Counted from the stretch's first letter, positions 2,343 to 59,325 are shown. The stretch is DNA of 61,312 nucleotides from a virus (IMGVR_UViG_3300025093_000022:1-61312); one strand, 5' to 3'. Program-made: numbers and translations. The notes: generated from the letters alone by a model not told the origin.

Positions 2343-2464
2343 AGAGGACTATTAAAAAAATTGAAAACTTTACTCCAAAACTTAAAACTAAAATTAGGAC
2401 TACAAATCCTTTTAGTTCTGGTATATCTATAAGAAAAGCTACTAGAAGTAATGATAACCAATAA
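2339..2464 (+). CDS. small basic hypothetical protein (41 aa, not in the ORF track)
   Basis: ATG overlaps the upstream TGA (ATGA); MKRTIKKIENFTPKLKTKIRTTNPFSSGISIRKATRSNDNQ fills the gap to terL. Confidence 0.5.
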   Translation: MKRTIKKIENFTPKLKTKIRTTNPFSSGISIRKATRSNDNQ

Positions 2465-8471: not shown

Positions 8472-9950
8472 ATGCCAAAAATTAGTCCGTTTCAAATGAC
8501 CGAAGCTAAGTCTTGGGCTGGATTGACAACTAAAAATCACTTGGGTTCTATTTTTCAAAGCGAGCCGCAAAAAGCTAGTAAACTACTTACTAGAATTGCA
8601 CAAACTAACTTTGGGCTAGACCTAGATACTTATTTAGATCAGTTCTCACCATTGTACTTAGATACTGATGATGACTTTACTTGGGACTTGGTAGGTTCTG
8701 GTAAAAAGAATGTACCTCTAGTTGAAGCTCGTATTAATGATACTGCTTTAGCTGCTACAGATACAGCTGGTTTAAACTTTACTGCTTTTGAACTTGTTTT
8801 CGCAGAGCAATGGTTTACTGACGAGCATGTAATCGTTGGTCACAAGAATGAGAAGTACCAACTTCAAATTCAATCAGATCCAGTTCCAGATGGATCATAT
8901 TGGGTATATACAGTTAAACTTTTAACTGGTGATCCAGATTTGTTTATGCCATATGAAGAGTTAACTGCCGGGACTAGATTCTCAAAAGACTTCTCTTTAG
9001 TTGAGCAAACTCTATCTAAAAAAGGTGGTGGAATTAACTTCACTTCTCCTTTCAAAATGAGAAACGCTTTCTCAATGATTCGTATGCAACATACGACTCC
9101 AGGTAACATGATTAACAGACCACTTATGACAGGTTGGGTTGGAGATCAAGGTAAAAAATATGCTACTTGGACTCAATATGAAGATTACGAGTTTGAAAGA
9201 CAATTTAGAGAAGAGAAAAACAAACTTGTTATGTTCTCAAGAGCTAACAAGAAAGATGATGGTTCTTATCAAAACACTGGTAAATCAGGTCACGTTAAGA
9301 AACAAGGAGCTGGTCTTCGTCAACAAATGGAAGCTGCTAATACAGTAGTTTATTCAACATTTGATATTGACTTCTTACTAGACACATTGTTAGAGCTTTC
9401 AGAAGGAAAACTTCCAACTGATAAGAGAGAGTTCGTAATGATGACTGGTGAAAGAGGAGCTGTTCAATTTCATGAAGCTATTGAGAACTATTCTCAATTG
9501 TTTACTAAAATGAATGACGGTTCAAGAATCTATGGTGCATCTTCAGATAATGGAGCTAAAATGCCTTTAGGTTACGGAGGTCAATTCGTTGAGTACATGG
9601 GACCACAGGGAATCAAAGTTACTCTTAAAGTTCATTCATTATATGATGATAGAGAGAGAAACAAGATTTATCACCCTGATGGTGGTGTAGCTGAATCGTA
9701 CAGATATGACATCATGGATGTTGGTACTTCTGACGGTGAGCCTAACATCAGAAAAGTATACGTTAAAGGTCAAGATGATATCATGGGATATGTACCAGGA
9801 TTTAGAGATCCATTCTCACCAACTGGTTCAAGAGCTAGAATCATGGCTGATCCAACTGACGGTTATACTATTCATAGAGGTTCAATTTGTGGTGTAATGG
9901 TGAAAGATCCATCTAGAACTGCAACGTTGTTACCTAATACTTTAGTGTAA
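8472..9950 (+). CDS. major capsid protein (HK97 fold, crAss-like)
   Basis: 492 aa; WAGLTTKNHLG, GAGLRQQME, TGERGAVQF, HPDGGVAESYRYDIMD are typical of crAss-like MCPs; highly biased codon usage; followed by a terminator. Confidence 0.92.
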   Translation: MPKISPFQMTEAKSWAGLTTKNHLGSIFQSEPQKASKLLTRIAQTNFGLDLDTYLDQFSPLYLDTDDDFTWDLVGSGKKNVPLVEARINDTALAATDTAGLNFTAFELVFAEQWFTDEHVIVGHKNEKYQLQIQSDPVPDGSYWVYTVKLLTGDPDLFMPYEELTAGTRFSKDFSLVEQTLSKKGGGINFTSPFKMRNAFSMIRMQHTTPGNMINRPLMTGWVGDQGKKYATWTQYEDYEFERQFREEKNKLVMFSRANKKDDGSYQNTGKSGHVKKQGAGLRQQMEAANTVVYSTFDIDFLLDTLLELSEGKLPTDKREFVMMTGERGAVQFHEAIENYSQLFTKMNDGSRIYGASSDNGAKMPLGYGGQFVEYMGPQGIKVTLKVHSLYDDRERNKIYHPDGGVAESYRYDIMDVGTSDGEPNIRKVYVKGQDDIMGYVPGFRDPFSPTGSRARIMADPTDGYTIHRGSICGVMVKDPSRTATLLPNTLV

Positions 9951-11654: not shown

Positions 11655-12935
11655 ATGCGAACGCAAAGAAACGTAGAACACCTTTTTATTGGTGGAACTG
11701 CAACAAAAACAACAGCGAATTATCCAAATTCAATGAACGCAGGTGAGATTGGTATCTTTACTCCAGAGGGAATTAGAGTTACTGAAGCAACAGCTGCTAC
11801 TATTGATGAGTTTGTAGTTGCTCTTGAAGATGCTAATGGGGTTGAGTATGTATCACCTGTATACAACAAAAACGACATTAAATCTGCAAAGAGAACTGTT
11901 TACGCTGCTGCTACTGCACAACTTGATTATTTAGGGTACAATGGAACTACTGGTTCAATTGACGCTATCAATAACAACTTGTACAAAATCAATATCCAAG
12001 TTCAAGAATTATTGAGAGCTAATACTGACGGTAGAAAAACTAAATTCGGAGTTTATAAGTCAGATTCATCTGCTACTCAAGCTGAGATTGCTATCGGTCT
12101 AGCTGGTTCATTAGTTAATAACTTTGATAGAGAGGCTGAAAAGTTTATCACTTTCAATGCTATTTGTAGTGATGCTCTTGATACTAACTACACAATGGAT
12201 GAAACTGTAACTGTAACTAATGGTTCAAAAGCAATTTCAATTGCAACTGACTACGATTATAATACAGGTACAGATTTAGCTGTAGGTGATTTTATTAGAA
12301 TTGCAGATACAGATACTACTGTAGCTCTTACTGATGATGTTTATAGAATTGAGACTATCAACTCTACTTCAGATATCAGATTGGATAGACCTTATCAAGG
12401 TACTTCTGGAACAAGAACTCACGGTAATAACTCTACACAAGCAATTACTGCTGCTGATGGAGCTGCTGCTGATTGGGGTATCTCAATGACAGGTGCTGCT
12501 CTTGACTTCGTAGCTGGTAAAGAAAACTATGAAGTTGTTAGATGGGAAACTCAAGTTGTTGATTTCGGAACTACAACTCAAAACTTTAAATCAACTGCTG
12601 CTTCTAGAGGTAACGGTACGATTAACGAAGTTGCTGAGTTAGAATGGTTCTTACAAGGTAACGAAGGTGAATACTACAGAGAAGGATTCTCTACAGTCCA
12701 CACTCCGAGATCATTAGTTGACTCATCAGTAACTGGTGGTGGATACGATATGACTACTATTACTTTTGATTCTGCTCACACAAATGCATTTCAAAATGTA
12801 ATCTCTCCAAGAGTATTAACTCTTGCGACTCCAGCAACTGCACCTAACTATGCAATTACTGGTACTTCAGATGACATTACAGATGTATTGGAAGTTTTAG
12901 CTTTCGGTTCAGCTAACGGTAACTTAGCACTGTAA
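11655..12935 (+). CDS. abundant virion structural protein (auxiliary capsid protein-like)
   Basis: Thr/Ala-rich beta protein with GNG..EVAELEWFLQG.EG..YR motif, highly biased codon usage and its own terminator. Confidence 0.6.
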   Translation: MRTQRNVEHLFIGGTATKTTANYPNSMNAGEIGIFTPEGIRVTEATAATIDEFVVALEDANGVEYVSPVYNKNDIKSAKRTVYAAATAQLDYLGYNGTTGSIDAINNNLYKINIQVQELLRANTDGRKTKFGVYKSDSSATQAEIAIGLAGSLVNNFDREAEKFITFNAICSDALDTNYTMDETVTVTNGSKAISIATDYDYNTGTDLAVGDFIRIADTDTTVALTDDVYRIETINSTSDIRLDRPYQGTSGTRTHGNNSTQAITAADGAAADWGISMTGAALDFVAGKENYEVVRWETQVVDFGTTTQNFKSTAASRGNGTINEVAELEWFLQGNEGEYYREGFSTVHTPRSLVDSSVTGGGYDMTTITFDSAHTNAFQNVISPRVLTLATPATAPNYAITGTSDDITDVLEVLAFGSANGNLAL

Positions 12936-25650: not shown

Positions 25651-28600
25651 ATGCAACATAAAGTAGGTTTTACAAAAGGTATTAATCAAGACCTAGCAAA
25701 AGACAAATACAGTAATCAAAATTACTTTACTGCTAATAATATAAAAGTTATTACTGGAGCCGGTATGTCCACTGGTTCTATTGAAAATGAAAAAGGTAAT
25801 AGTTTATTATTTCAATTCCCTACTGTAGGGGTTAGATATAAAGTTGCTAAAGGGGCTGCAGGTACTACTACTATTAACGGACAACTAGGTACTCTTCTAG
25901 GTAGTGAGACTATAGAGGAAGCTTATAATAAAATTATAGGTATTACGGGCGTACAAACATTAATTGATAACAGTCAACTATATATCTTTTATAATGATTT
26001 AGGAGTATTTATTCAAGTATTAGATACATCAGTTGCGGTAACTGGAAACGCTTACACAACTCAATCTGCAGCTACATCAGATATTTATATTTGTGGGTGG
26101 ACTAGATTAAATGAGTGGCTAATTGTATTTACTTCAGATAGTGAGACAAATGAACCGACCTCTGCTTTATGTCAAATATGGAAATTTAAATTTAAATCTG
26201 GCTCTAGAACTCAAATAGATGGTACACTTACTGCAACGCCTACAACATTAGAAACAACTGAACACCTTATATATAACGATAATCTTAATTACTCTACAGT
26301 AACTTACATTAGAGATGTTGTAGCTAATTATGAAACTAGTGCCAAAGGTAGAGTTTATTGGACAGATTATTTTAATGATGTTAGAGTAGCCAATGTATTA
26401 GATGATACATTAATGGAAACTAAACCTAATGATTTAAATCTAGTTGCTGAAGTTACATTCGGTAAGCCAATTATTACAGAGGTAGGTGACGGTAATTTAC
26501 CGTATGGGGCTACTTATCAATATTATTATAAATTACTAAGTTTAGATGGAAGAGAATCTATATTCTCACCAGGATCTGCTTTAATAGATGTTCAAGAGAA
26601 AAGATCTGACGATCCAGGTGTAGGTTATTTTGATTTAGATTCCTCGCCAGCAGGGTCTGGTAATGGCAAATCAGTTACAATAAATATTAATGACTTAGAT
26701 TCAGATTATGATGTTGTAGAGTTATATGCAGTTATCTACGAATCTTTAGATTCTCCTGTTATATATAAAGTAGATGATTACGCTATTTCTGGAGATAGTA
26801 TTACATTAGTACACTCTACTTTAGAGGGTAATATTAATATATCTAGAGCTGAGTTTATGGAAATAGGTACTCCATTTACATGTAAAACTTTAGAAGATAG
26901 GGATAAACAATTAGTAGCAGGTAATATTAAAGAAACTAAATTTGACCCTACATTTGATGCTAGAGCTTATAGATTTGACTCAGGTTCTACATTTGACCTA
27001 TTAGATTCTGAAGGTAATGTTGAGTATTCAGCTAAGACATCTTCTCAATATACAGATATAGCTGATGATGCTGACGCAGTTAATCCCACTAATGATGACA
27101 CTAACGCTACATATAATATAGACTCTGCTAATAAACAAATATATAAAGCAGATGGTTCTACTGTAGGAGGAGAAGGTCCCAACATATCTTATACCTTCGC
27201 TAGTGTTAATAAAGTAGGCTCCACAGGTTCTGACGCATTAAAAGACGATTCAGCTATTGATGAGGGTTATAATATAAATGACTCTAGGATTACTTGGTCT
27301 ATTGATAGTGGTATTGATAATTTAGATGGTACTAACATTGTGTTAGATCTAAATGGTGAGATGCGTAGCGAAAAATCAGTATTAGTTGATGCTAATTTTC
27401 AAGGCTACGCTAGGGGTGAGGTATATAGATTTGGTATAGTATTCTATTCTAAATCTGGACAACGTTCATATGTTAAATGGATAGGTGATATTAAAATGCC
27501 AGATCCATCTTACACTGATGGTACTAATGGTGATGACTATAGAATATCAGATGCAGCTAATCCAACTCATTGTGTTCCTGGGGATCAAACAGATACACAA
27601 ACGTATACATTTGATTTATATCCAGTATTTACTGTGGATATATCATCTATACAGTCAGATATTTCAGGTTTTGAAATAGTAAGAGTACAGCGAACTGCTC
27701 AAGATAGAACTAGACTAGGTACTGGTATTATACACAATTTAGTAGACTATGCTACAGGTGATGGTACTGCTTTAGGAGGGTCTGGACTACAAGCTAATTC
27801 TATATTAAGAACATATACTAACACTGCTGCTGGTAGTTTTTATGAAGGTAGTACTAATACAACTACAGCTTATACTAGTGCTGGTACTAGAGTTATTGGT
27901 TCTAAAGTAACCGTAGGTACAACCACTTATGGAGATAGTGCTACAGGTGGATCTGGAACTCCAAATACAACATTAATGTTACCAGATATACCTATCATGG
28001 TAGGTCATAGAAATTCTACATTTGGCGGAGTAACTGATACAGAGCTTAAGAGACTAAATGTATTTCATTCTCCATTAACAGAGTTTGATAATTATACTGG
28101 GTTTAAAGTACAAACTTCTACGGATTATATTAGAGAGTATGGTTACTATACAGTAAGTCCATTTATATATAATGATGATTTTCAAAATGGAAGTAAATCT
28201 TCTGCAGATTTTGATGATTTTGATATAGGTATATTATATAGAGCTAAACAATTTCATTCAGAGAGAAGTAATTCTAATACACCAAGATTCTTTGAATTAT
28301 CTGCCGGTAGAAAATTAGGTTTAGGGGAAGTTATATTTGATAGTACTGACGATTTATTAGATGATATTACTTTTCCAATTAGTATAACTAGTGGAGGCAA
28401 CACTCCAGATGTAGAAGCAATTAGTAATACATCTTTTACTTATTCAGATGGAGCAGCTGCTAAAATAGGAGTACCATTTGGTTTGGGGACTGCTAAATAC
28501 TTTTTAAATTTAAAGCAAACTGGCTCATGGACTTGGTCACAACCAGCTTCACAAATAAACTTTCATTCAGGATCTGTTGTTATAGGTAATAACTGGTCAG

Positions 28601-48200: not shown

Positions 48201-49528
48201 CAGTTAAAACTAATAATCCTAATTTAATTAAGATAGTAGCTTATAGAAATAATGCTAAAGCTAGTTACAATAAAAAAGTACATGACGCTGTATTTGGAAA
48301 AGATGCTGCTCAATTTAATGAGGGAGAGATTATTATCTTTAATGATAACTATAAAGATTTGAAAATTCCTAATTCAACTGAAGCCGTAGTTAGTTCTGTG
48401 GATAATAAAGTACACAAACACAATAGAAGTGATATAAGATATAGATATATATCTGTTAAATTTGGAAATAGAACTGAAGTTATTCCAGTTGTAATATCTG
48501 AAGACAAACAAAAATATAAAGATTACTTAAATGTCTTAGCCAAAGAAAAGAGATGGCCTTTATTTTATAAAATTAAAGAAAACTTTGCCGATATTGATTA
48601 CGCATATGCTATTACATCTCATAAATCACAAGGTTCAACTTATGAAACTGTAATAGTAGATGCTAAAGATATCAAAGGAGTTTCTAAAATTGATAATGCT
48701 GAAAAATCAGAGAGTATTTATACTGCATTAACTAGAGCTAGTAATACAGCAATAGTTCTTGAAGGTGGTGCAAAAGCAACTGCAGGTACTACATTATACT
48801 CTGAAGAGTCATCTACTCCTCCAGACTTAGGTAAGGTACCAATTTTTGATCCTGAAACTGGAACACAACTTTTTTCACCTAGTAGAAAAGCAGCTCCTGC
48901 TGTAGCTAAAGTGTTTAAAGATAATTCAGAACTTAGTATGTTAGGAACTGCTACTCAATACCAAGATTATTTAGCAACGGTATTTCCTAGTAGTAAAGTT
49001 CCTGGAATTGTTTATCATGGAACTATAAATAAAAACATACCTTCAGAAGGATTTATTGGTAAAACTATGTTCTTCACAAAAGACCATAAAACAGCCGCTA
49101 GATATGCTGCTCAAAAAGATTCAGCTAAGTATGATATTTATTTAGAAGATTTCCAAAATGGTAAAATCTCTGAAAATGATTTATCTCCATATGTAGTACC
49201 AGCATTAGTTAATATTACTAATCCATTTATAGAAACATCTTCTAAAACATATTTAGAAAATGCTAAAACTATAAATAGAATTTCAGATATTAATGATGGT
49301 TTTGTAGCTAGTTCTGTAAAAGATACTAAAGGTATTGAAGATCAGATAGCTGTTTTTGATAGTGCTAATATTCATATATTAGGATCACAAGCTGACGTAA
49401 ATATGTTTAGAGAATATCTACAAAATGAAAACCTTCTAAATGAGAGTTTTGATAACCCATCAAAAAATAGTATTTTTAAAGAATCTTCTACTAAAGATGT
49501 AGATGAACATAAAAAACAATGTAAGTAA
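36248..49528 (+). CDS. giant virion RNA polymerase polyprotein (double-psi barrel RNAP + zincin motifs + SF1B helicase + ART-like domain)
   Basis: GTDAQ, GYRIPTQG and catalytic GSDFDIDK (44096); HEAMH (46622) and HEFEH (47279); GKAGTGKTT/IIDEASMV/GDIGQL/HKSQGST/YTALTRA; VYHGT...MFFT. N-terminal hydrophobic Gly-rich helices. Confidence 0.9.
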   Translation: MPKGDDKLNPLNKDIKQYDQDLNSTIDIFAKPSAPKYTEGIDIKLSEYEEAKKAGAGDLLTPESFLQNKEDFQKIATEKERLLNDSRARQQSLGDKIGNGLVKFGGRVFTSIAGSTIGTLHGLYAWARDGEFKSFYDNEFQDGLDGINDYLSEEFPHYYTSNKNDWEISNFIFDKVFDGLGFAVGAVGSSMLGGGATNALTKSLGWSKYMKAGAVNKLNKTLQSTTASSDDVLKATEKFTRDIRRIDKASKIPHTISSMTTGAVYESGVEARHTFDEIKEDLINSYKLEYGKAPTGQQLEEINKIAGESANGVFAANMAVVGGSNILQFSRHLGLDFSDAKKLFTNKRIATETAEGFTKKGSSTLRGVKQVLSKPIVESQEEMIQSVISGTGKDYAKKKYNNDGKADLTDLLNSSIKSFKKTYSSKEGWEEGLIGAIVGSIGVYNANKVKKGYEGNKLPSLAVIESFKDWRSDENFRNTMVGFLNETDAISSLTSSIQHMLQDGQYEKAKESALILNNVKAYKDTQDEQFHSYVTARIDAGMSDQIYSDLNKLRNIPLEEFKETFSIPAETKYTEVDKLKQIESFERRARDIQESTEFIEKNYPNQEEIHDALIFNHAMLKRISDRKDNISREIEELTGNAAITLNVTNKETGVKATAKEIFKDVDKKYQANKKAYTDLYKDYIDLSEREDKMLTEFVAYTTVPEAAKALIDELDETEQKNAKEANKGKRQKEKTKAKEKQEAKVDSAKAVAKAEEDVLVENQSVVDDIDAAQNEEEYTILDPNLKDALENDKEGRQKIIDEVNKLKKDESGVDPGTPESAKTKLKRDQKINKKSEDSKVAPKDYTKDSKTKKSAEEKIARANRGETTEGFENEEVQKEATGVYRVGKRLVNAFNAIAVRTRNFIDTPSGIKESTDEIKSATSLRILDPKFIKAKDKVEIKLNNDPNFIFYKPDGTVDPDKRNEIGTDNQIMEIYFDEELVGYLHGTDYITERRVVPIVDGADNINRNIEELAKARKEIRKHLQDNPSYSVKVVSKTAGQIRVKANEKYDAKLTDVVQDDTRPELLVIKDGTIYHKDQPLEDSPLADKLVFNPEDVYTLEDSFAEEFNGATMIAVPGANGQYVVSLVRNGSIQEADAKVKDTVLEVLNAYVANDTEALAEFGLADSKTGEVYPELVSEYINNFIYTTSDVDSPHYMFLGLNSKGNPQIRFTHKPGEKPTILEGNTEAPEYKFLEERIDGSLISTNLRSLNDNVQLTLTGGEKISYKDFIYDNLYANFVGEKIPGTNVMSYTDNPIILLDLGNPLDMTSKPKAKKKDRPSEGPLLDSAIDKKKDSKKTVSKDNPLLKSNFKRGKKSPKRDYNPEDLFKSLNPIVDAATGSLVMSQDTIDITMSLTNTVYDIISSEEKISVSEAFKQLEAALVEFRDMYESHGDTAGENAVETVLNNMDSFKLLVSQKLRVLGYNIKGGKMSEIFFESNRQEAFDQAEEETLYGDTPDITKSFNEDAIFTDNPLNKLSAQIKMKLATIPNEEANVLGMDSYYEMETVYNALLETLSDKPDMSISQMIEVLKSKAVEKPYLLYVINNILENPEIDQSVKYAFNSHFKMSYLEKELVKADSENDIRVIESNRVSLTNLIFETWLNRGKLQNLLTASAEGTQVVNKDYVTEVVDPLWETAKETKSVEDTHAYLQAVGIDISLDALREMESNSKNLEGFKRTTWKQLFTHKNRGVFRKIREALDAELPDNVHPFKNEGYIKKIAGVQAKYASDIATKSYRDVEGKSNYSYVLPTWITDRFSRLKNNKGLINKLQKIPFLERSWYLTMLKTDEKFREVFDLKVIDSIKFKGRDGQKFNKLTKKEQLIAQIGFFANSNQGKPGKRIGKFFVSKSDKSNVHVLTALRHNTTSTPEQIRDNKWSEEDKRQILDNIIGSEYSRIKDAQERRDAGVNFGDIKGYNPFIFYTFPELNDLDSIKDEDGNLLDFEDARDTMWKAISQPQEDGTPSTLKQIHTSTKAELEKYGIIENNKLKYVDRVYKGQNRTGNVDYFIRDYTLNYMIATFNYSQLFQSDVAFAAKKNKGVDVAYANMFKRLAKDMAPAVRSATSVSADYNHYNQIVLADAFNSSNNIDQLREMFPDLVPDYSGIEGTDAQEVTLLSEHINVMYHHGKITDEQYNKFYPKAVKGEYYTPAELEELIDIIKNAHKPVYVTNKYMPEYGAEVPVYLKSSSFPLVPQLVEGTAFETLERLMRTNTRKIGNKNMPMPIHRAIFESGAKLGAFKTIDAWNKATNPEGDFITYKDKAITDGTFNEEAIKEALKNNNYLTLDRAGFGIQQDVPFDESKDKIPEGSQLMKLIQTGIEDPTVVEEFNQLHIDITEKAFQNLLDELGATDNGDGTYSGLDLKKLRTLLKEELIDRGSYTENDLVALDIQEDGKGNLQFSTPLWATPKSVQFESLLNSIINKRVIKQKMPGKSYVLATEEGWQGFTSDIERITSGLKGTKYNPKTGLKPQRIGYLNEETNEKQEREYILNLIKKEKDISKLSEEKISELIKTKAKKLGFKEVVFPAQVLMTKGKWNQKQMVGYRIPTQGLNSMSAMEVVGYLPDYMADLIIAPKDFVTQMGSDFDIDKLYVHRWHETRAGRKVSKQSVQTGWEYYLESREKQEFQAESQVKQLAKVTAFLNNTFDKVDLEVSEEDVREIYDKVVTKTLTEEDYKALHEKKQKQNRIMDIYWETLTNKNNLKDVLKPLDFGNLPEVVKNIKASKQHHPLSPIRQINNYQNGNAGKFGVSVTSLASTTNALLQVVKNVITLKTFTGKAYTPVKFKFKINGEVIEVSDLNGEMTLDGSMKKIDVISAFQSASVDNIKELLIKIINYNKHTHDAFLTLSYLGLDDKYISYLLAQPIIKKYVENREALSGGFTDINVSEIEDEAYRMTFEEFGTTNPVTNWNKAFSEKALITALNNPENLENQQILLEKFKRLSESGKEINDLIRALQPGTSGVGKNRISANLKQAKVEDLLNSQTITGIDEMFGDVERLQNGEINLTPKTIAGQGYEILKRSNNLFNSLFSINSVAMKLAQAVANNNDVNVKGFTEKQLTQLSKFVKSYVFSDKSNMYSDETAVAYRNRLMLGENSLAHRVEKFKQSNPRNPLSLAIRTNISKIEGVPSTVYYNASSAERGDEMKYTIAILQLLNSEVADEVELGEDLIAYTYLTGGNQDAKSLLKLLPNTYLHLVNFGKDVESSSQKIVKGEVEMYPVMKQLFQHFPYLAKSVSLDEAGTLEENGKLIVNTKQPRFISISLDRESKPVVYEKTTEKSIDGIVYKPLNHLGTYEYSETEYNAKDLSSVLAENNVGEDVVVVESQTPPKKDESILDPNVANVAKKVNQTATRYRLGEKNTKAVLDAISNAGISEENKALAKSLASAIGNVPIIQTELPPYADGIYQEENNAILINNNLKDPVEFERVVLHEAMHAVLANVIKNPTTKQQKEIIDSLEAVLKVAQKNESAFSFKNGLKDLDEFISELMTDVTFQRELATLDFNKDINLLQRIWKLISDILSEVTGDVVTQSSIEAVGELIKSTSPTVVSVSESTNELIKEAVSYKDVPIVDSTDIINAEGKKGAAQYDRTNNRILVDRSLLKQKFSEQAWTNPRDLIESIDGVEVTSTMTPMMADQFLSYKQFEDFVIAHEFEHSKYTREMHEALTSDTTKGQYEDEINRRALESLGIPFKPMPKKVTKTEAPVESSPIVLNKEQQAAVDNTVDFIKNGNPNEYYVIEGKAGTGKTTIAEKIAKEFPGQIIKLAALSHKAKGVISKKFSKAKIPATSHSIAGLLGMTLDLSSGKFKVDRNRYTPPPIGEADIIIIDEASMVNEEALEMIMQGKSAKAKVVFLGDIGQLKPIRSVSNPYYKTKKHLLDKKSPVFESTNKSMLTERVRQGEESPILPYADNYWENSQIEKPVLNPTSHKESIYSDKGNLVFANEFSEIEKEVLSKFKEAVKTNNPNLIKIVAYRNNAKASYNKKVHDAVFGKDAAQFNEGEIIIFNDNYKDLKIPNSTEAVVSSVDNKVHKHNRSDIRYRYISVKFGNRTEVIPVVISEDKQKYKDYLNVLAKEKRWPLFYKIKENFADIDYAYAITSHKSQGSTYETVIVDAKDIKGVSKIDNAEKSESIYTALTRASNTAIVLEGGAKATAGTTLYSEESSTPPDLGKVPIFDPETGTQLFSPSRKAAPAVAKVFKDNSELSMLGTATQYQDYLATVFPSSKVPGIVYHGTINKNIPSEGFIGKTMFFTKDHKTAARYAAQKDSAKYDIYLEDFQNGKISENDLSPYVVPALVNITNPFIETSSKTYLENAKTINRISDINDGFVASSVKDTKGIEDQIAVFDSANIHILGSQADVNMFREYLQNENLLNESFDNPSKNSIFKESSTKDVDEHKKQCK

Positions 49529-55488: not shown

Positions 55489-56094
55489 TTATTTCTCTTT
55501 TAAAATATTTTTAATAGTAGATACACCAACATTATATAATTCAGCAAGTTCAAGTTGAGTTAACTTTCCTCTATTATAATAATATTTTATATTTTGTTTT
55601 TTAGTTTCTTTAAGCTCAGTAATAGTCTCAGCTATTCCTTTACGTTGTCTAATTCTATGAACTTTTTCAACTGATATACCATAAAATTCAGCAACATCCT
55701 TAGATTTTATACCCTTTTTAATCATAAAACCTATAGTATCTCTTTCAAAATTAGTAAGCTCTTTTTTATAATAAATAGGATCTTTTCTACATACTCTTTC
55801 ATTAAAATAAGAAAGTGCTTTCATAAACATTCTATCATTACTCTCTAAAAACTCTCTATATTTTCGTAAACCGTGAGTTATTGTTGCATGATTTCTACCT
55901 CCATATCTAGCTCCTATTTTACCAAGAGTCATAGCTGTAGTTGTATGTAAATATTCAAAACAAAGATATCTAGCAATAGCTGCTGCTGCAGACCCTCTAG
56001 TAGCTCTCGCCCCGTCTCCTTTATCTCCATATAAATCTTCTAAAGTAATATCAACAGCATCACAAGCTATTTGTTCAAAACTCCAATCTATCAT
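55489..56094 (-). CDS. DnaA domain IV-like HTH protein with two extra HTHs
   Basis: AIARYLCFEYL...MTLGKIGARYGGRNHATITHGLRK matches DnaA_C (ARQIAMYL...IG..FGGRDHTTV.HA); KDVAEFYGIS and ELAELYNVGVSTI HTHs. Confidence 0.7.
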   Translation of the reverse strand: MIDWSFEQIACDAVDITLEDLYGDKGDGARATRGSAAAAIARYLCFEYLHTTTAMTLGKIGARYGGRNHATITHGLRKYREFLESNDRMFMKALSYFNERVCRKDPIYYKKELTNFERDTIGFMIKKGIKSKDVAEFYGISVEKVHRIRQRKGIAETITELKETKKQNIKYYYNRGKLTQLELAELYNVGVSTIKNILKEK

Positions 56095-56318
56095 AAATCT
56101 TTTATTTTATATTTAAACCAATATAAACCTTGATATGTAGTTTTTAATTTATACATCCAACCCTCTCCTTCTGGTATTGGTTCATTTATAACTTCAGCTT
56201 CATGTCTATATCTAAATCCTAATATTTTAAAATACCAGGGCATAAATTTTATGTTGTAGCTTATTATATCTCCAGATTCAAAATCTTTTTTATTAAATTT
56301 TAAATTGTAAAATTTCAT
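56091..56318 (-). CDS. small protein resembling MCP residues ~105-150
   Basis: EVINEPIPEGEGWMYKLK vs MCP QIQSDPVPDGSYWVYTVK; FYNLKFNKKDFESGDII vs AFELVFAEQWFTDEHVI. Confidence 0.65.
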   Translation of the reverse strand: MKFYNLKFNKKDFESGDIISYNIKFMPWYFKILGFRYRHEAEVINEPIPEGEGWMYKLKTTYQGLYWFKYKIKDL

Positions 56319-56728
56319 ATATCTAACATTTTCATTAATTTTTTTAACTCTGATTTGTTTTTAATGTTACCTTGAAACACAAATTCACTGTTCCAATTAT
56401 AAATCTGTATAAACCAGAAACCATCTTCTAAATTATCATGTAAATACATTTGAAATTCATTATTTTTATCTCTATGATTATAAATAAAACAACTCATTGC
56501 AAACTTTTCACCATCTACCCAACCCAAACTCTTTATATCTTCTTGGTCTAGGTGTTTGACTCTCATTGATTTTAAGCCTATTTCCTGAATACCTCTTGCA
56601 GTATCAGCGAATCCATAGGTTTGTTTTCTCCATGTAGTATCTACAAGGTTATCATGTATGTCTTCTATTTCATACTCAAACCCAACATGGAACTCTTCTA
56701 TCTCTGGTGTGTAATACTTATCTTCCAT
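56315..56728 (-). CDS. hypothetical phage protein (YYTPxIEEFHVGFEYE type)
   Basis: 137-aa ORF; RVKHLDQEDIKSLGW and F.G.IKNKSELKKLMKML. Confidence 0.7.
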   Translation of the reverse strand: MEDKYYTPEIEEFHVGFEYEIEDIHDNLVDTTWRKQTYGFADTARGIQEIGLKSMRVKHLDQEDIKSLGWVDGEKFAMSCFIYNHRDKNNEFQMYLHDNLEDGFWFIQIYNWNSEFVFQGNIKNKSELKKLMKMLDI

Positions 56729-57308
56729 TATGTATTTTATTTAATTCAATAACTACTCTAGCAAATCCGCCTGCTTTAGGGGTTGCTATTAAATTTTCGG
56801 CTAAACTTAATTGAATAAGATCTATATCAACATCTTCATTTGAATATATTAGTACATCTCTATCAATTTTATCTATAAAGTCTTCTAATAGTTTAAAATT
56901 ATGTTCTTCTTTTTCAATAGACCAAGCTCTACCTGGAAAATGCATAGCTGTTACTATAACTATAGTTTTACTAGAATCATATTTGTTAATTTCATTTAAA
57001 TAAAAGTCAACATTACCTTGATTATCTAATCCTCTAACAATAGTCTCATCTCCTGTTCTAACATGAACTAAAACATGATTATTATCAAATAACTCTAATC
57101 TTTTAGATCTTTCTATTATTATCTTATAAAGAACTTCCAAATCAAATTTATCATGAGGAGTTTTAAAATACTCTTTCATAATACTATCTTTAAATTTAGA
57201 ATCACTTAATAATTCTTTGACTGTAAAATAGTCATCTGGAAAATTTAATAAATCATGTATTCTATAAACAGAATTGCCTTTTAGAATTTTTATATCACTT
57301 CTTCTCAT
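56718..57308 (-). CDS. glycosyltransferase family 11/23-like (fucosyltransferase-like) protein
   Basis: VLVHVRTGD (cf. HxRRGD), Y..., DIDLIQLSLAENLIA...GGF motifs. Confidence 0.5.
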   Translation of the reverse strand: MRRSDIKILKGNSVYRIHDLLNFPDDYFTVKELLSDSKFKDSIMKEYFKTPHDKFDLEVLYKIIIERSKRLELFDNNHVLVHVRTGDETIVRGLDNQGNVDFYLNEINKYDSSKTIVIVTAMHFPGRAWSIEKEEHNFKLLEDFIDKIDRDVLIYSNEDVDIDLIQLSLAENLIATPKAGGFARVVIELNKIHNGR

Positions 57309-57492
57309 AATTAGTAATTAATCGTTCTAAATACCACTTAGCCTTTTTAAGATCTTCAATTCCATTTTTATTCTTATATCTAGAAACATATTTAACGATA
57401 TTTCCTTGATAAAAATCTAACTCCATAGAATCTATTAAATCTATAGGTTGAATATCTTTACCTTTATAATGCTTTGGATTTATTTTATTCAT
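57295..57492 (-). CDS. DUF3310 (SaV-like / T7 gp1.7-related) protein
   Basis: INPKHY...IQPIDLI...FYQGNIVKYVSRY..KNGIEDLKKAKWYLERL. Confidence 0.85.
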   Translation of the reverse strand: MNKINPKHYKGKDIQPIDLIDSMELDFYQGNIVKYVSRYKNKNGIEDLKKAKWYLERLITNYEKK

Positions 57493-57782
57493 ATTTTATA
57501 ATTCTTTAAAAACAAAAGAAGGCCGGCCGGAGACAGACAGAGGGGGGGTGAGGGGTATCTTTCAAACCACACATCTAATTTTTCCATAAATTTATTTAGA
57601 TCTATATCATATTCTTTTTTAGGATCAAACTTTCCATTAGAAGCTTTTAACAGTTGCTCGTAATATTTTTTAGCCTTTTCTTGCTTAAAAATATAAGATG
57701 TAGTTTCTGATTTAGATTTTTCTTTAAAAGTTTTACTATGATGTTTTAATAAATCATCTATTGTTAAATTAACTTTCTTCAT
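57489..57782 (-). CDS. hypothetical protein
   Basis: 97-aa ORF overlapping its neighbours. Confidence 0.6.
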   Translation of the reverse strand: MKKVNLTIDDLLKHHSKTFKEKSKSETTSYIFKQEKAKKYYEQLLKASNGKFDPKKEYDIDLNKFMEKLDVWFERYPSPPLCLSPAGLLLFLKNYKI

Positions 57783-57990
57783 ACCCTTTTAAATTATGTT
57801 TAAACTTTGGGTAACCTTTCCAAACTCCTTCACCATCTTCATCTGTAGTACCATACCAAAAATTTAAAGTCTGCTTAAAAATATAAACTGTGGTAGGTTT
57901 TCCAAAACTAACTAGCTCTAAAGTACCAATGTATCTGCCCTCATATTTTATATAATCTATAAAATCATCTAACTTTATACTTTTATTCAT
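57769..57990 (-). CDS. hypothetical protein
   Basis: 73-aa ORF overlapping its neighbours. Confidence 0.6.
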   Translation of the reverse strand: MNKSIKLDDFIDYIKYEGRYIGTLELVSFGKPTTVYIFKQTLNFWYGTTDEDGEGVWKGYPKFKHNLKGYEES

Positions 57991-58402
57991 CTTTCAATTT
58001 ATTAATTTCATCAATAGTTAAAGCTCTAGTTATTTTACCATCTACAATTTCATATCCTTCAATACCAAAAAGTATTTGAGTTTTAACACCTTTCTCAATA
58101 ATTTCATCATCTATTTCATCATCTATTTCTCCCCACTCTAAACTTTCTTCTATAGTAGCTGGTTTACTATAAATATCACTTGATCTAGTAGCGTATGTAT
58201 AAGTTTCCCATTTAAACTCTTTATCTACAGGAACAGCATCCCACATATCTTTAAGCATTTTCTCCATCTTTTCAGATGTTAGCTTATCAGCTTTATATAC
58301 AGTAGAACTTTTTTCCATTTGAGCTAATATTCCATCACCTGTTTTTATAGAATCGTCATCCTCTATCTCAAGTCTTTTTGACTTAATCTTTTTCTTCTTC
58401 AT
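57983..58402 (-). CDS. protein whose N-half resembles MCP residues ~276-322
   Basis: IKTGDGILAQMEKSSTV...VPVDKEF vs MCP KKQGAGLRQQMEAANTV...LPTDKREF. Confidence 0.7.
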   Translation of the reverse strand: MKKKKIKSKRLEIEDDDSIKTGDGILAQMEKSSTVYKADKLTSEKMEKMLKDMWDAVPVDKEFKWETYTYATRSSDIYSKPATIEESLEWGEIDDEIDDEIIEKGVKTQILFGIEGYEIVDGKITRALTIDEINKLKDE

Positions 58403-58544
58403 CTATACCTAAATTAAAATTTTTATCTCCCTTTTTTATAACAATGGGCTTTTTTAGTAAACTAGGATTAGCTTTACCATTTCTGTCATAAAATATAAAA
58501 CCTAGAAAGTAAGTATCCCCTTTTTTAAAGCCTATTTTACTCAT
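58383..58544 (-). CDS. 53-aa protein resembling a conserved muzzle-protein motif (not in the ORF track)
   Basis: MSKIGFKKGDTYFLGFIFYDRNGKANPSLLKKPIVIKKGDKNFNLGIDEEEKD; fills the gap between UDG and 57983..58402, overlapping both. Confidence 0.65.
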   Translation of the reverse strand: MSKIGFKKGDTYFLGFIFYDRNGKANPSLLKKPIVIKKGDKNFNLGIDEEEKD

Positions 58545-59325
58545 TTTCTTCATCTTTAGGTGGTATTATTTCTATTTTATCATGTTCCATAAATAATGGG
58601 TTAGGCATTAAAGTAACTTTAGTCTCCCCATATTGTAGTGTCTGGAATCCATTTAACCAATTAATAGGTAATTTTAGATATTCATTACACTTACTAAAAG
58701 GTTTAGTACCAAAGAAGTTCTTACAACTAAATGGACTAGGATGTGCTGATTCTATAAATTTATGAGTAGGATTATTTAAATACTTCTTATATGATTTAGC
58801 ATGATTACCCCAAAGAATAAACACTAAATCATCTTTAGTATTTAAAGTTTTCATTACTTGTTTAGTAAATCCATTCCAATAATAAGCATGAGAACCAGGT
58901 TGCCCTTTAGTTACAGTCAAAGCTGTATTTAAAAGTAAAACACCTTGATCTACCCAATGTTGTAAAGTATAGTCAAAGCCTTCAACAGAACCTATATCGC
59001 TTTCTAACTCTTTAAAAATATTTTTTAGACTAGGTTGAACTCTATACCCTCCATCACAAGCAAATGCTCTACCAAGAGCTGCAGGTGTGTTATCATAGTA
59101 AGAGTTATGGTATGGATCTTGCCCAATAATCACAACTCTTACATCTGATAACGGTGTTTCATCAAAAACTCTAAATATATTTTCTTTTAAAGGATATACC
59201 TCACTAGTTTTTCTATCTTCAACTATTTTTTTATTTAATTGTTTAAATTCATCAGATTGAAAATAAGGCCATAAAGCATTAGCCCAATCTAATTGCATTA
59301 AACTTTGTAGTTTAGCTTTTGTCAT
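58537..59325 (-). CDS. ung: uracil-DNA glycosylase family 1 with C-terminal extension
   Basis: GQDPYH, QPSLKNIFKEL, QGVLLLNTALTV, FILWG and HPSP motifs. Confidence 0.92.
   Translation of the reverse strand: MTKAKLQSLMQLDWANALWPYFQSDEFKQLNKKIVEDRKTSEVYPLKENIFRVFDETPLSDVRVVIIGQDPYHNSYYDNTPAALGRAFACDGGYRVQPSLKNIFKELESDIGSVEGFDYTLQHWVDQGVLLLNTALTVTKGQPGSHAYYWNGFTKQVMKTLNTKDDLVFILWGNHAKSYKKYLNNPTHKFIESAHPSPFSCKNFFGTKPFSKCNEYLKLPINWLNGFQTLQYGETKVTLMPNPLFMEHDKIEIIPPKDEENE

What the first reader, a model, noticed from the sequence alone, without database searches (positions are those of the whole stretch)
56091..58653. Cluster of non-structural genes encoding stand-alone fragments of the phage's own capsid and tail proteins (candidate mimic/decoy system)
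Seen: within about 2.6 kb of the opposite-strand, non-virion region, four coding segments resemble different pieces of virion proteins encoded in this window. They are 56091..56318 ~ MCP 105-150, 57983..58402 ~ MCP 276-322, the UDG tail ~ MCP 370-393, and 58383..58544 ~ muzzle ~585-607. The last three are consecutive overlapping genes. The matches are at protein level and diverged, and the frames are intact and coupled to their neighbours, which argues against recent duplication debris. Known: some defence systems are triggered by virion proteins (CapRel and Lit by MCP, Avs by portal/terminase). Inference: these could be decoys that occupy host sensors without activating them, dominant-negative poisons of a co-infecting relative's assembly, or assembly regulators. 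I know of no description of such a set in crAss-like phages, but I cannot search the literature.
Basis: partly seen in the sequence, partly recalled or inferred. Interest (0 to 1): 0.88.

Follow-up and report, generated by a model that had tools for sequence, protein, structure and literature searches.

The report
Small phage genes copied from capsid-protein domains
A marine crAss-like phage carries, among its replication genes, two small genes that are old, diverged copies of two different pieces of its own capsid protein; what they do is untested, but molecular mimicry is the leading idea.

Summary
By pairwise comparison all four resemblances sit at chance level: the all-against-all Smith-Waterman results look the same as the shuffled and reversed controls. 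Family profiles change that for two of them.

(1) ORF 56091-56318 (75 aa) belongs to a family of at least 28 small proteins. The family is homologous to the first half of the crassvirus capsid-protein I-domain: hhalign probability 96.3%, E 1.6e-9, 55 columns. The only Pfam family hit is Crass_capsid.

(2) The N-terminal ~60 residues of ORF 57983-58402 and its relatives match capsid-protein residues ~276-338 in the A-domain: hhalign probability 94.4%, E 8.4e-8. Crass_capsid is again the best or only Pfam hit.

(3) The muzzle-like motif of ORF 58383-58553 is tentative (11.2 bits, E ~0.01).

(4) The UDG tail shows no signal.

The genes are real. ORF 56091 has dN/dS 0.14. They are patchily distributed accessory genes, and similar capsid-like mini-ORFs recur in other crassviruses. 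Profiles of terminase, portal, auxiliary and ring proteins gave at most one weak unexplained small-ORF hit (portal).

A decoy or mimic role is plausible but untested. The genes are not a fixed, co-conserved "system". Earlier AI notes of this scan report similar mini-capsid genes on other phage DNA.

The parts
56091..56318 (-). 75-aa gene for a stand-alone I-domain-like small beta protein. It belongs to a family of 49-98-aa proteins.
   Evidence: 29 proteins at E<=1e-3 in 1.84 billion representatives; this includes the query itself and one repetitive 1110-aa junk hit that I dropped. Family vs MCP alignment: hhalign probability 96.3%, E 1.6e-9, 55 columns. The two halves land independently on MCP 97-123 and 128-151. 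dN/dS 0.14 against L048. No Pfam or PHROG family for this protein itself.
57983..58402 (-). 139-aa gene: an N-terminal capsid A-domain-like module, a variable acidic middle, and a conserved C-terminal beta/alpha part with no MCP similarity.
   Evidence: Homologues P0005 and P0006 at 64-68% identity. Diverged homologue L048:8643-9170. Its only Pfam hit at E<=1 is PF23898 Crass_capsid (E 0.022). C-terminal part vs MCP: E 0.75-0.97.
58232..58357 (-). The MCP-like module itself, aa 16-57 of the 139-aa protein (motif G-x-G-[IL]-x-x-Q-M-E).
   Evidence: Full MCP profile 9.3 bits; a profile of MCPs <=53% identical to the window's gives 10.7 bits; 1 of 5000 shuffles reaches 9.3. Five-sequence module alignment vs MCP: hhalign probability 94.4%, E 8.4e-8, 63 columns, 32% identity.
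58383..58553 (-). 56-aa ORF (53 aa from the second ATG) with a 20-residue beta-hairpin motif resembling the most conserved motif of that muzzle-protein region. Tentative.
   Evidence: Muzzle-segment profile (19 sequences): 11.2 bits, E 0.0095 among 971 ORFs. Decoy maxima 3.7 (reversed) and 7.9 (10x shuffled). Homologue P0008, 83% identical, scores 13.7 bits. No Pfam crAss_MUZ hit at E<=1.
58537..59325 (-). Uracil-DNA glycosylase superfamily gene. Its C-terminal tail (aa 219-262) is not capsid-like.
   Evidence: PF03167, 52.3 bits. Tail vs MCP: 46 of 300 shuffles reach its score. No MCP-profile hit.
8472..9950 (+). Major capsid protein (MCP), the source or relative of both modules.
   Evidence: phrog_11589, E 8.5e-115. 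PF23898, 520.9 bits. 390 bits to crAss001 gp32 (7qof_A).
8760..8924 (+). MCP residues 97-151, the first half of the I-domain (a beta-barrel inserted in the E-loop). This is the part matched by the ORF 56091 family.
   Evidence: It maps to crAss001 gp32 ~99-154, inside the I-domain 79-180 defined in PMC10172136 (section read).
9297..9485 (+). MCP residues 276-338 (A-domain helix-strand-helix-strand), matched by the ORF 57983 family module.
   Evidence: That this is the A-domain is my inference from its position in the HK97-type fold; I did not check it on coordinates.
27400..27471 (+). Muzzle protein residues 584-607, a conserved motif of the Y-R-F-G-I-x-F type.
   Evidence: The muzzle is identified by PF25731 crAss_MUZ, 510 bits. 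The motif column block is conserved in 19 of 19 aligned relatives.
11655..12935 (+). Auxiliary capsid protein. In crAss001 it is the partner of the I-domain on the capsid surface. Context only.
   Evidence: PF25650 crAss_AuxCP, 45.2 bits. The partner role is taken from PMC10172136.

Best explanation
SHOWN. The window is a marine crAss-like phage contig. Its minus-strand block 53.6-61.3 kb is a replication and nucleotide-metabolism module: Prim-Pol, UDG, DUF3310, a DnaA_C/sigma-r4 HTH protein and DUF932, interspersed with small accessory genes. Two of these accessory genes are genuine, old, selectively maintained derivatives of capsid-protein modules.
- ORF 56091 is a free-standing relative of the first half of the capsid I-domain, the surface-exposed beta-barrel inserted in the E-loop. 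It carries an extra ~15-residue insert (P-W-Y-[LF]-[RK]-x-L-G-F) and its own C-terminal strand.
- ORF 57983 begins with a ~60-residue copy of an A-domain segment that contains several of the capsid protein's invariant residues, followed by an unrelated C-terminal part.

INFERRED, not shown. Because each keeps a recognisable piece of the capsid protein and is dispensable and patchily distributed, I think the two proteins most likely act as molecular mimics. They would be made from the replication-gene operon and would compete with the capsid protein for something that binds it. That could be a host immune sensor of capsid protein (decoy) or a capsid-assembly partner of this or a co-infecting phage. 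I cannot say which partner.

ORF 58383 may be a third case (muzzle motif), but that is tentative. The UDG tail is a chance resemblance.
For: HOMOLOGY OF THE I-LIKE FAMILY
- A profile of 29 family sequences hits the window MCP at 128-151 with 22.5 bits; the next-best of 27 virion proteins scores 5.2.
- The profile hits 32 of 32 full-length MCP relatives (45-84% identical) at the same place with 10.8-24.1 bits. Reversed MCPs score at most 1.9. 10 of 42 sequences, truncated to <440 aa, were left out.
- In the reverse direction, 27 of 29 members score above 0 at MCP profile positions 101-160 and 20 of 29 score above the 5.1-bit decoy ceiling. No reversed sequence scores above 0.
- In six-frame searches of 5 crassvirus records, and of phage phi14:2, the only hits of the family profile are in the MCP gene.
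- Among 24,736 Pfam models the only family hit is Crass_capsid (2 of 29 members, best E 3.1e-4). In PHROGs, one member hit the crass major-head family (E 0.0035) and one member hit an unnamed family (phrog_13536, E 0.0091).
- hhalign gives probability 96.3%. The N half alone maps to MCP 97-123 (E 1.7e-4) and the C half alone to 128-151 (E 5.2e-8), collinear.
- In the ESM Atlas structure search, the top two rows are Crass_capsid clusters (TM 0.61 and 0.60, 55 residues aligned).

HOMOLOGY OF THE A-LIKE MODULE
- Among 971 six-frame ORFs of the window, L001 and L048, the best non-MCP hits of the MCP profile are L048:8643-9170 (24.3 bits, E 5.7e-7) and ORF 57983 (9.3 bits, E 0.021). The maximum over 10,681 decoys is 5.1.
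- Pfam Crass_capsid is the best hit of the L048 protein (E 6e-6, residues 5-66 to profile 280-342) and the only hit of ORF 57983.
- hhalign gives probability 94.4%.

REAL GENES
- dN/dS is 0.14 over 75 codons, and each gene has conserved homologues.

RECURRENCE AND SPECIFICITY
- In 4 further crassvirus genomes (4,825 ORFs), three small ORFs hit the MCP profile at 12.0-14.2 bits against a decoy maximum of 5.9.
- Equally built 5-sequence profiles of TerL, AuxCP and ring protein gave no small-ORF hit above decoys apart from true paralogues and one locus-boundary artefact. The portal profile gave one weak hit, 8.4 vs 4.8.

A PUBLISHED PRECEDENT FOR MIMICRY
- DSAD1 is reported to mimic the tail tube protein and occupy its pocket in DSR2 (PMC10973363, abstract read).
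Against: - No result here bears on function. Mimicry is an inference from homology, dispensability and gene position.
- The residues shared with the MCP are largely hydrophobic strand and turn positions, as expected from mere conservation of a fold.
- The family profile does not find crAss001 gp32 among PDB sequences at E<=10; the only hit is a laccase hairpin at E 0.52. It also does not find the MCP of G006, the other complete crassvirus that carries a family member. The sequence signal is therefore lineage-limited.
- Structure comparison with solved chains does not discriminate. 7qof_A reaches Z 4.0-4.1 at ranks 31-32, tied with many small beta-barrels (top Z 5.0-5.2), and the AF2 model has pLDDT of only 63.
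- One homologue, in L048, carries a 1-nt deletion that truncates it.
- The genes are absent from cultured phi14:2 and cr111_1, so no expression or proteomic data exist for them.
- Pairwise, the window's own ORFs are at chance level.
Confidence: 0.45

Rival explanations
1. Shared ancestry without any present link to the capsid. The I-domain may have entered the capsid gene from a pool of small beta-barrel genes, or fragments of the capsid gene may have been captured as raw material for new accessory genes. Either way, the small proteins would now do something unrelated to capsid, such as binding a nucleic acid or a host protein in the replication module.
For: - The homology is ancient: 56-58% nucleotide identity with no third-position excess.
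- The family has its own insert and C-terminus that are absent from MCPs.
- The C-terminal part of ORF 57983 is unrelated to MCP.
- The genes sit among replication genes.
- The fold is a generic small beta-barrel that also resembles bL21, PilZ and PUA-like domains.
Against: - An A-domain core segment is an integral part of the HK97-type fold, so for that module the direction must be capsid to small gene.
- The module keeps the capsid protein's invariant G, Q, M, E and Y positions in three independent lineages: the window, L048 and G002.
- Among the virion proteins tested, the clear small-ORF signal came from the capsid protein; the portal gave one weak hit.
Confidence: 0.35
2. The small proteins are assembly factors or minor decoration proteins of the phage's own head. 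For example, the free I-like domain could occupy auxiliary-protein sites, or could chaperone the capsid protein.
For: In crAss001 the I-domain forms a three-fold assembly with the auxiliary protein on the capsid surface (PMC10172136, section read). The window encodes that auxiliary protein.
Against: - Distribution is patchy. Neither module is found in L001, G003, G005, phi14:2 or cr111_1, which is not expected of a needed head component.
- The genes lie on the opposite strand, outside the virion module.
Confidence: 0.12
3. All four resemblances are chance or convergent beta-hairpin and helix motifs in AT-rich, lysine-rich small ORFs.
For: - The pairwise all-against-all scores are indistinguishable from shuffled and reversed controls.
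- A multicopper-oxidase hairpin matches the same family motif at E 0.52 in PDB.
- The ORF 58383 match is only 20 residues long.
Against: For the first two ORFs: reciprocal profile hits lie far above 10,681 decoys, collinear halves match independently, library-wide Pfam best hits go to Crass_capsid, and hhalign gives probabilities of 96% and 94%. For the UDG tail, this rival is my conclusion. For ORF 58383 it remains a serious possibility (about 0.4).
Confidence: 0.05

Closest known systems
I-domain of the crassvirus major capsid protein (crAss001 gp32 residues 79-180; PDB 7QOF; PMC10172136)
   Same: Sequence homology to its first half over 55 columns. The predicted small beta fold aligns to 7qof_A 106-157/159 at Z 4.0-4.1. 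The top ESM Atlas structural rows are Crass_capsid clusters.
   Different: It is free-standing rather than inserted in an E-loop. It covers only about half of the domain, has a ~15-residue insert and its own C-terminal strand, and is encoded among replication genes.
Pfam PF23898 Crass_capsid (A-domain segment, profile positions ~278-342)
   Same: Best or only Pfam hit of L048:8643-9170 (25.3 bits) and of ORF 57983 (13.6 bits). 32% identity over 63 columns at profile level.
   Different: It covers 40-63 of the 496 profile positions, scores below the 27-bit gathering cut-off, and the rest of the protein is unrelated.
DSAD1 of phage SPbeta, inhibitor of DSR2 (PMC10973363; abstract read)
   Same: A small phage protein said to mimic a virion protein (the tail tube) and to occupy the sensor pocket without activating it.
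   Different: Here the mimicry is inferred from sequence homology to the capsid protein, and no sensor or binding partner is known. For DSAD1 the binding is shown by cryo-EM.
Phage T4 vs.8, a stand-alone protein homologous to the terminase ATPase domain (PMC13601566; passages read)
   Same: A free-standing paralogue of one domain of a core virion or packaging protein, restricted to some phage taxa, with an unknown role.
   Different: [quoted passage not shown] Here the proteins are sub-domain pieces of the capsid protein.
Gol region of T4 gp23, trigger of the Lit protease (recalled from memory; no call)
   Same: It shows that a short internal capsid-protein segment can by itself be what a defence system recognises.
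   Different: Gol is part of the capsid protein, not a separate gene. No relation of sequence or position was tested.

Membership tests
Crassvirus major capsid protein (Pfam PF23898 / HK97-type fold) | Whole-protein score over the curated cut-off (27 bits) with near full-length coverage of the 496-position profile | tested here: not met
   ORF 57983 scores 13.6 bits over profile 278-316. The L048 homologue scores 25.3 bits over 280-342. ORF 56091 itself has no hit at E<=0.01, and 2 of 29 family members hit at E<=0.01. These are fragments, not capsid proteins.
Crassvirus capsid I-domain (beta-barrel inserted in the E-loop) | Sequence homology to the I-domain segment of crassvirus MCPs | tested here: met
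   hhalign probability 96.3%, E 1.6e-9. 32 of 32 MCPs are hit at the same segment. The two halves map independently and collinearly.
Crassvirus capsid I-domain (beta-barrel inserted in the E-loop) | Same three-dimensional fold | tested here: inconclusive
   The AF2 model has pLDDT 63.4. 7qof_A 106-157 reaches Z 4.1, rmsd 2.6, 52 residues aligned, at rank 31 of 630, and Z 4.0 at rank 32 of 48,161. These are tied with many small barrels. The top two ESM Atlas rows are Crass_capsid clusters.
Crassvirus capsid I-domain (beta-barrel inserted in the E-loop) | Located as an insertion within the capsid protein's E-loop | tested here: not met
   It is a separate 75-aa gene on the opposite strand, 46 kb from the MCP gene.
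Phage anti-defence decoy of a virion-protein sensor (DSAD1-like) | Resembles the virion protein that triggers the sensor | tested here: met
   Homology to MCP segments. Whether the MCP triggers any sensor in the unknown host was not tested.
Phage anti-defence decoy of a virion-protein sensor (DSAD1-like) | Binds the sensor at the trigger's site and blocks its activation, rescuing the phage | not testable with these tools
   The host and its defence systems are unknown, and no cultured relative carries the genes.
Crassvirus muzzle protein (Pfam PF25731 crAss_MUZ), for ORF 58383 | Significant match to the family profile | tested here: not met
   No crAss_MUZ hit at E<=1. Only a 20-residue match to my lineage-specific segment profile, 11.2 bits.
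Uracil-DNA glycosylase superfamily (PF03167), for 58537-59325 | Score over the curated cut-off | tested here: met
   52.3 bits against a 24.3 cut-off, residues 54-218. The tail 219-262 lies outside the domain.

The most novel reading that the evidence does not exclude
Crassviruses, and other phages according to this scan's earlier notes, maintain a turnover-prone repertoire of "mini-capsid" genes. Each is one exposed module of the major capsid protein, expressed with the replication genes before the capsid protein itself. Their role would be to saturate or blunt host immune sensors that recognise capsid protein, or to poison the heads of competing phages. The free I-domain-like family and the A-domain module would then be two independent inventions of the same counter-defence strategy.
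Probability: 0.22. Interest if true: 0.9.

Novelty: new variant of a known kind. Interest (0 to 1): 0.68.

Why it matters
Capsid proteins are among the phage molecules that bacterial immune sensors recognise. One published phage inhibitor is reported to work by mimicking a virion protein (DSAD1; abstract read).

This locus supplies two concrete gene families, defined by sequence and under purifying selection, that are stand-alone pieces of a capsid protein. They occur in a major phage order and have no Pfam or PHROG family of their own. That turns the "virion-protein mimic" idea into something testable by binding partners, deletion phenotypes and structures.

The I-like family also bears on how capsid insertion domains arise, since a free relative of the crassvirus I-domain exists.

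My literature searches and the passages read turned up no description of such genes. The searches were few and cover open-access text only.

Tried and rejected
- BLASTP of the 18 minus-strand ORFs against the 27 virion ORFs gave E>=0.87 for every claimed pair. It missed the ungapped 22-residue match, which a two-sequence BLASTP scores at 23.9 bits, E 5e-4.
- An AF2 model of ORF 57983 was useless (pLDDT 36.7).
- Foldseek against PDB and BFVD gave no match at E<=0.001 for the ORF 56091 model. crAss001 virion entries appeared at PDB ranks 4, 9 and 12 with E 1.0-1.7, which I treat as a lead only.
- Neither VIA search singled out any fold.
- Complex prediction with the auxiliary capsid protein (alignment A8) and the I-like family (A3) returned "no answer" with a score of 0.00. 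This says nothing for or against binding.
- The look-up of sequencing runs listed no RNA holder.
- The ESM Atlas gave nothing usable for the L048 175-aa protein.
- A PDB sequence search with the family profile and with the L048 protein did not find crAss001 gp32.
- Scans for more relatives found little. P0011 in IMG/VR gave none. The ORF 57983 alignment in IMG/VR gave none. The family motif in 185,579 prokaryote genomes gave none. L068 was only a motif match inside an HNH-like protein.
- The genome search with PF23898 reported only the full MCPs, because weak short matches do not pass its first look.
- The C-terminal part of the ORF 57983 family shows no MCP similarity, so it is not a "mini A-domain".
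- The promoter-like count equals the shuffle expectation, and no terminator-like site lies within 56-58.6 kb on the minus strand.
- I considered that the small ORFs are exon fragments carried along by a mobile intron, because cr111_1 has a GIY-YIG intron inside the I-domain hairpin. No endonuclease gene lies near them in the window, and the family match spans the insertion point. I left this as an observation.

Full report
WHAT THE WINDOW IS

The window is a 61.3-kb virus record at 31.6% G+C. A run holding all sampled words of the 55.4-59.4 kb stretch, and marked as its possible source, is labelled a marine metagenome.

The plus strand carries a crassvirus virion module:
- Terminase at 2451-4685, portal at 4738-7182 and capsid protein (MCP) at 8472-9950, all identified in PHROGs. 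The MCP scores 520.9 bits against PF23898 and 390 bits against crAss001 gp32.
- A ring protein, the auxiliary capsid protein at 11655-12935, and the muzzle protein at 25651-30372 (PF25731, 510 bits).

The minus-strand block 53.6-61.3 kb holds replication and nucleotide-metabolism genes. These are Prim-Pol, a UDG-superfamily gene, DUF3310, a DnaA_C/sigma-70-r4 HTH protein and DUF932. Between them lie small ORFs with no Pfam or PHROG family. The four ORFs of the finding are there as described and overlap their neighbours by 4-20 nt.

PAIRWISE SIMILARITY IS AT CHANCE LEVEL

Taken one pair at a time, two claims look striking.
- ORF 56091 against the MCP gives a Smith-Waterman score of 56, against 30.4 +/- 4.6 for shuffles (0 of 300).
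- ORF 58383 against the muzzle gives 56, against 32.8 +/- 4.2 (0 of 1000).

- Across all 18 x 27 pairs the real maximum is 60, and 5 pairs reach 56.
- In 200 shuffled sets the mean maximum is 62.0 and on average 2.6 pairs reach 56. 11.5% of shuffled sets have 5 or more such pairs.
- Reversed virion proteins give a maximum of 57 and 4 pairs at or above 56.

The window's own sequences alone therefore cannot show that any of the four is more than chance.

THE 75-AA ORF (56091-56318) IS A REAL RELATIVE OF THE CAPSID I-DOMAIN

Family. A profile search of 1.84 billion representative proteins found 29 proteins at E<=1e-3. This count includes the query itself and one 1110-aa repetitive translation that I dropped. 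The rest are proteins of 49-98 aa.

Family profile against virion proteins and MCPs.
- Among the 27 virion proteins, the 29-sequence family profile hits the window's MCP at residues 128-151 with 22.5 bits. The next-best protein scores 5.2.
- It hits 32 of 32 full-length MCP relatives from IMG/VR (45-84% identical) at the same segment, with 10.8-24.1 bits. Reversed MCPs score at most 1.9. Ten truncated sequences were left out.

Reverse direction.
- An MCP profile scores 27 of the 29 members above zero at positions 101-160.
- 20 of the 29 score above the 5.1-bit ceiling of 10,681 decoys.
- The signal persists with a profile built only from MCPs <=53% identical to the window's.

Whole-genome and library-wide checks.
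- In six-frame searches of five other crassvirus records and of cultured phage phi14:2, the only hits of the family profile lie in the MCP gene.
- Among all Pfam models, the only family any member hits is Crass_capsid (2 of 29).
- In PHROGs, one member hit the crass major-head family and one member hit an unnamed family at E 0.0091.

Profile-profile comparison.
- hhalign gives probability 96.3%, E 1.6e-9, over 55 columns (family 3-72 to MCP 97-151).
- Split in two, the N half lands on MCP 97-123 (E 1.7e-4) and the C half on MCP 128-151 (E 5.2e-8). They are adjacent and collinear.

Location in the capsid protein. The window's 97-151 corresponds to crAss001 gp32 ~99-154. That lies inside the I-domain. 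[quoted passage not shown] It forms much of the exposed capsid surface and assembles with the auxiliary protein (PMC10172136, section read).

Structural evidence agrees but is weak.
- The AF2 model (pLDDT 63) is a small beta protein. It aligns to 7qof_A 106-157 at Z 4.1, tied with many barrels.
- In the ESM Atlas structure search, using the Atlas's own model, the top two rows are Crass_capsid clusters.

The gene is under purifying selection: dN/dS 0.14 and dS 0.66 against L048.

THE 139-AA ORF (57983-58402) STARTS WITH A COPY OF AN A-DOMAIN SEGMENT

On its own the evidence is thin.
- The MCP profile gives 9.3 bits (1 of 5000 shuffles reaches this), and the distant-MCP profile gives 10.7 bits.
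- hhalign with only three close sequences gives probability 30%.

The case rests on more distant relatives.
- The metagenome contig L048 is syntenic: its UDG is 68% identical, and the ORF 56315, ORF 56091 and HTH genes are in the same order. At the matching place it has a 175-aa protein that aligns with ORF 57983 at both ends.
- The N-terminus of that 175-aa protein is the best non-MCP hit of the MCP profile among 971 six-frame ORFs (24.3 bits, E 5.7e-7).
- It has Crass_capsid as its best Pfam hit (E 6e-6, residues 5-66 to profile 280-342).
- It is 43% identical to the window's MCP over 53 residues.
- ORF 57983's only Pfam hit at E<=1 is also Crass_capsid.
- A complete crassvirus, G002, has a further ~55-aa ORF with the same module (14.2 bits).
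- The five-sequence alignment gives hhalign probability 94.4%, E 8.4e-8, 63 columns and 32% identity, mapping to MCP 276-338.
- The rest of the protein is unrelated to the MCP.

THE OTHER TWO CLAIMS

ORF 58383.
- Its 20-residue motif is the best non-muzzle hit of a muzzle-segment profile built from 19 mostly distant relatives (11.2 bits, E 0.0095, decoy maximum 7.9).
- The motif is kept in its one homologue (13.7 bits).
- Against this, the match is short and of a common aromatic-strand/D-x-x-G-turn type, Pfam crAss_MUZ does not see it, and no such ORF appears in four other genomes.
- I rate it about even.

UDG tail.
- It has no support. It fails the shuffle test, has no profile hit, and the segment is not conserved in two related UDGs.

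DISTRIBUTION

Presence of the window's three ORFs in relatives:
- L001 (UDG 67% identical) is syntenic but lacks all three ORFs at BLAST level. A 68-aa ORF right after its UDG scores 11.9 bits with the family profile, no better than the best decoy at 11.1.
- L048 has the I-like and A-like genes. Its I-like gene carries a 1-nt deletion.
- G006, a 96%-complete crassvirus, has an I-like gene as the last gene of its non-structural block. It also has, 35 kb away, a 108-aa ORF that matches MCP 321-350 (12.4 bits).
- G003, G005, phi14:2 and cr111_1 have none above decoys.

Overall, 4 of 9 records examined carry at least one capsid-like mini-ORF.

The signal is largely specific to the capsid protein. 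Equally built profiles of terminase, auxiliary protein and ring protein gave no unexplained small-ORF hit above decoys. The portal profile gave one weak hit, 8.4 vs 4.8.

These are accessory, fast-turnover genes, not a conserved cassette.

MECHANISM

What is shown is homology, selection and dispensability. What follows is inference. A protein that keeps a recognisable exposed module of the capsid protein, and is encoded with the replication genes, most plausibly works by competing for something that binds capsid protein. That could be a host sensor (decoy) or an assembly partner of this or another phage. I put this at about 0.45.

The main rival, at 0.35, is that the relationship is purely historical: a domain donated to, or captured from, the capsid gene, and the proteins now do something unrelated.

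A structural or assembly role in the phage's own head (0.12) fits poorly with the patchy distribution.

COMPARISON WITH WHAT IS KNOWN

Closest by sequence are the crassvirus I-domain and the Crass_capsid A-domain. Neither small protein is a capsid protein, because both fail coverage and the score cut-off.

Closest by proposed mechanism:
- DSAD1, reported to mimic the tail tube protein and occupy its pocket in DSR2 (PMC10973363, abstract).
- T4 vs.8, a stand-alone terminase-ATPase paralogue that was toxic with EcAvs2 (PMC13601566, passages).

My four literature searches and the passages read found no description of stand-alone capsid-fragment genes in crassviruses. That is a limited search of open-access text without supplements.

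Earlier AI notes of this scan (unchecked by me) report similar mini-capsid genes in jumbo, T4-like, temperate and one other marine crAss-like phage. The pattern has therefore been seen before on other DNA within this scan.

Noticed in passing
L095 (MT774387.1, uncultured phage cr111_1) 301-2716: The capsid gene of cr111_1 is split by an insertion that carries a GIY-YIG-type endonuclease ORF. The break falls between window-MCP residues 142 and 146, inside the I-domain hairpin that forms the core of the match to the 75-aa family. Whether this is more than coincidence is unknown.
   Followed up: partly
L048 10001-10227: The homologue of ORF 56091 (84% identical) has a 1-nt deletion in an A/T run that truncates it to 44 aa. 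The downstream frame is still 81% identical, so this is either a recent frameshift or an assembly error.
   Followed up: partly
G002:C1:77165-77365 (-) and G006:C1:68028-68351 (+): Two further small ORFs in complete or near-complete crassviruses match MCP profile positions 284-323 (14.2 bits) and 321-350 (12.4 bits); the decoy maximum is 5.9. Both lie in the block of small genes upstream of the terminase gene.
   Followed up: partly
L001 512-718 (+): A 68-aa ORF directly after the UDG of the syntenic relative scores 11.9 bits with the I-like family profile. That is no better than the best reversed decoy at 11.1, so it is a borderline possible family member.
   Followed up: partly
L048 9148-9420 (+): A 90-aa ORF scores 5.5-5.7 bits against MCP profile positions ~35-91 (N-terminal arm region), E 0.23-0.28. 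This is at or just above decoy level.
   Followed up: no
Neither appears among MCP-profile hits at E<=10 over 971 six-frame ORFs.
   Followed up: partly
G005:C1:43418-43873 (+): A 152-aa ORF scores 8.4 bits against a 5-sequence portal profile (decoy maximum 4.8). It is the only unexplained small-ORF hit above decoys for a virion protein other than the capsid protein.
   Followed up: no
window 36248-49528 (+): A single 4426-aa ORF, presumably the virion RNA polymerase giant protein of crassviruses.
   Followed up: no
window 56670-56720 / KC821624.1 94916-94966: A 51-nt stretch is 88% identical to Cellulophaga phage phi14:2, within or next to its gp116, at the junction of window ORFs 56315-56728 and 56718-57308.
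   Followed up: no
window 58537-59325 and the UDGs of L001 and L048: The three UDG-superfamily proteins share a conserved C-terminal motif, I-E-I-I-P-P-K followed by acidic residues, beyond the Pfam domain. Its function is unknown.
   Followed up: no
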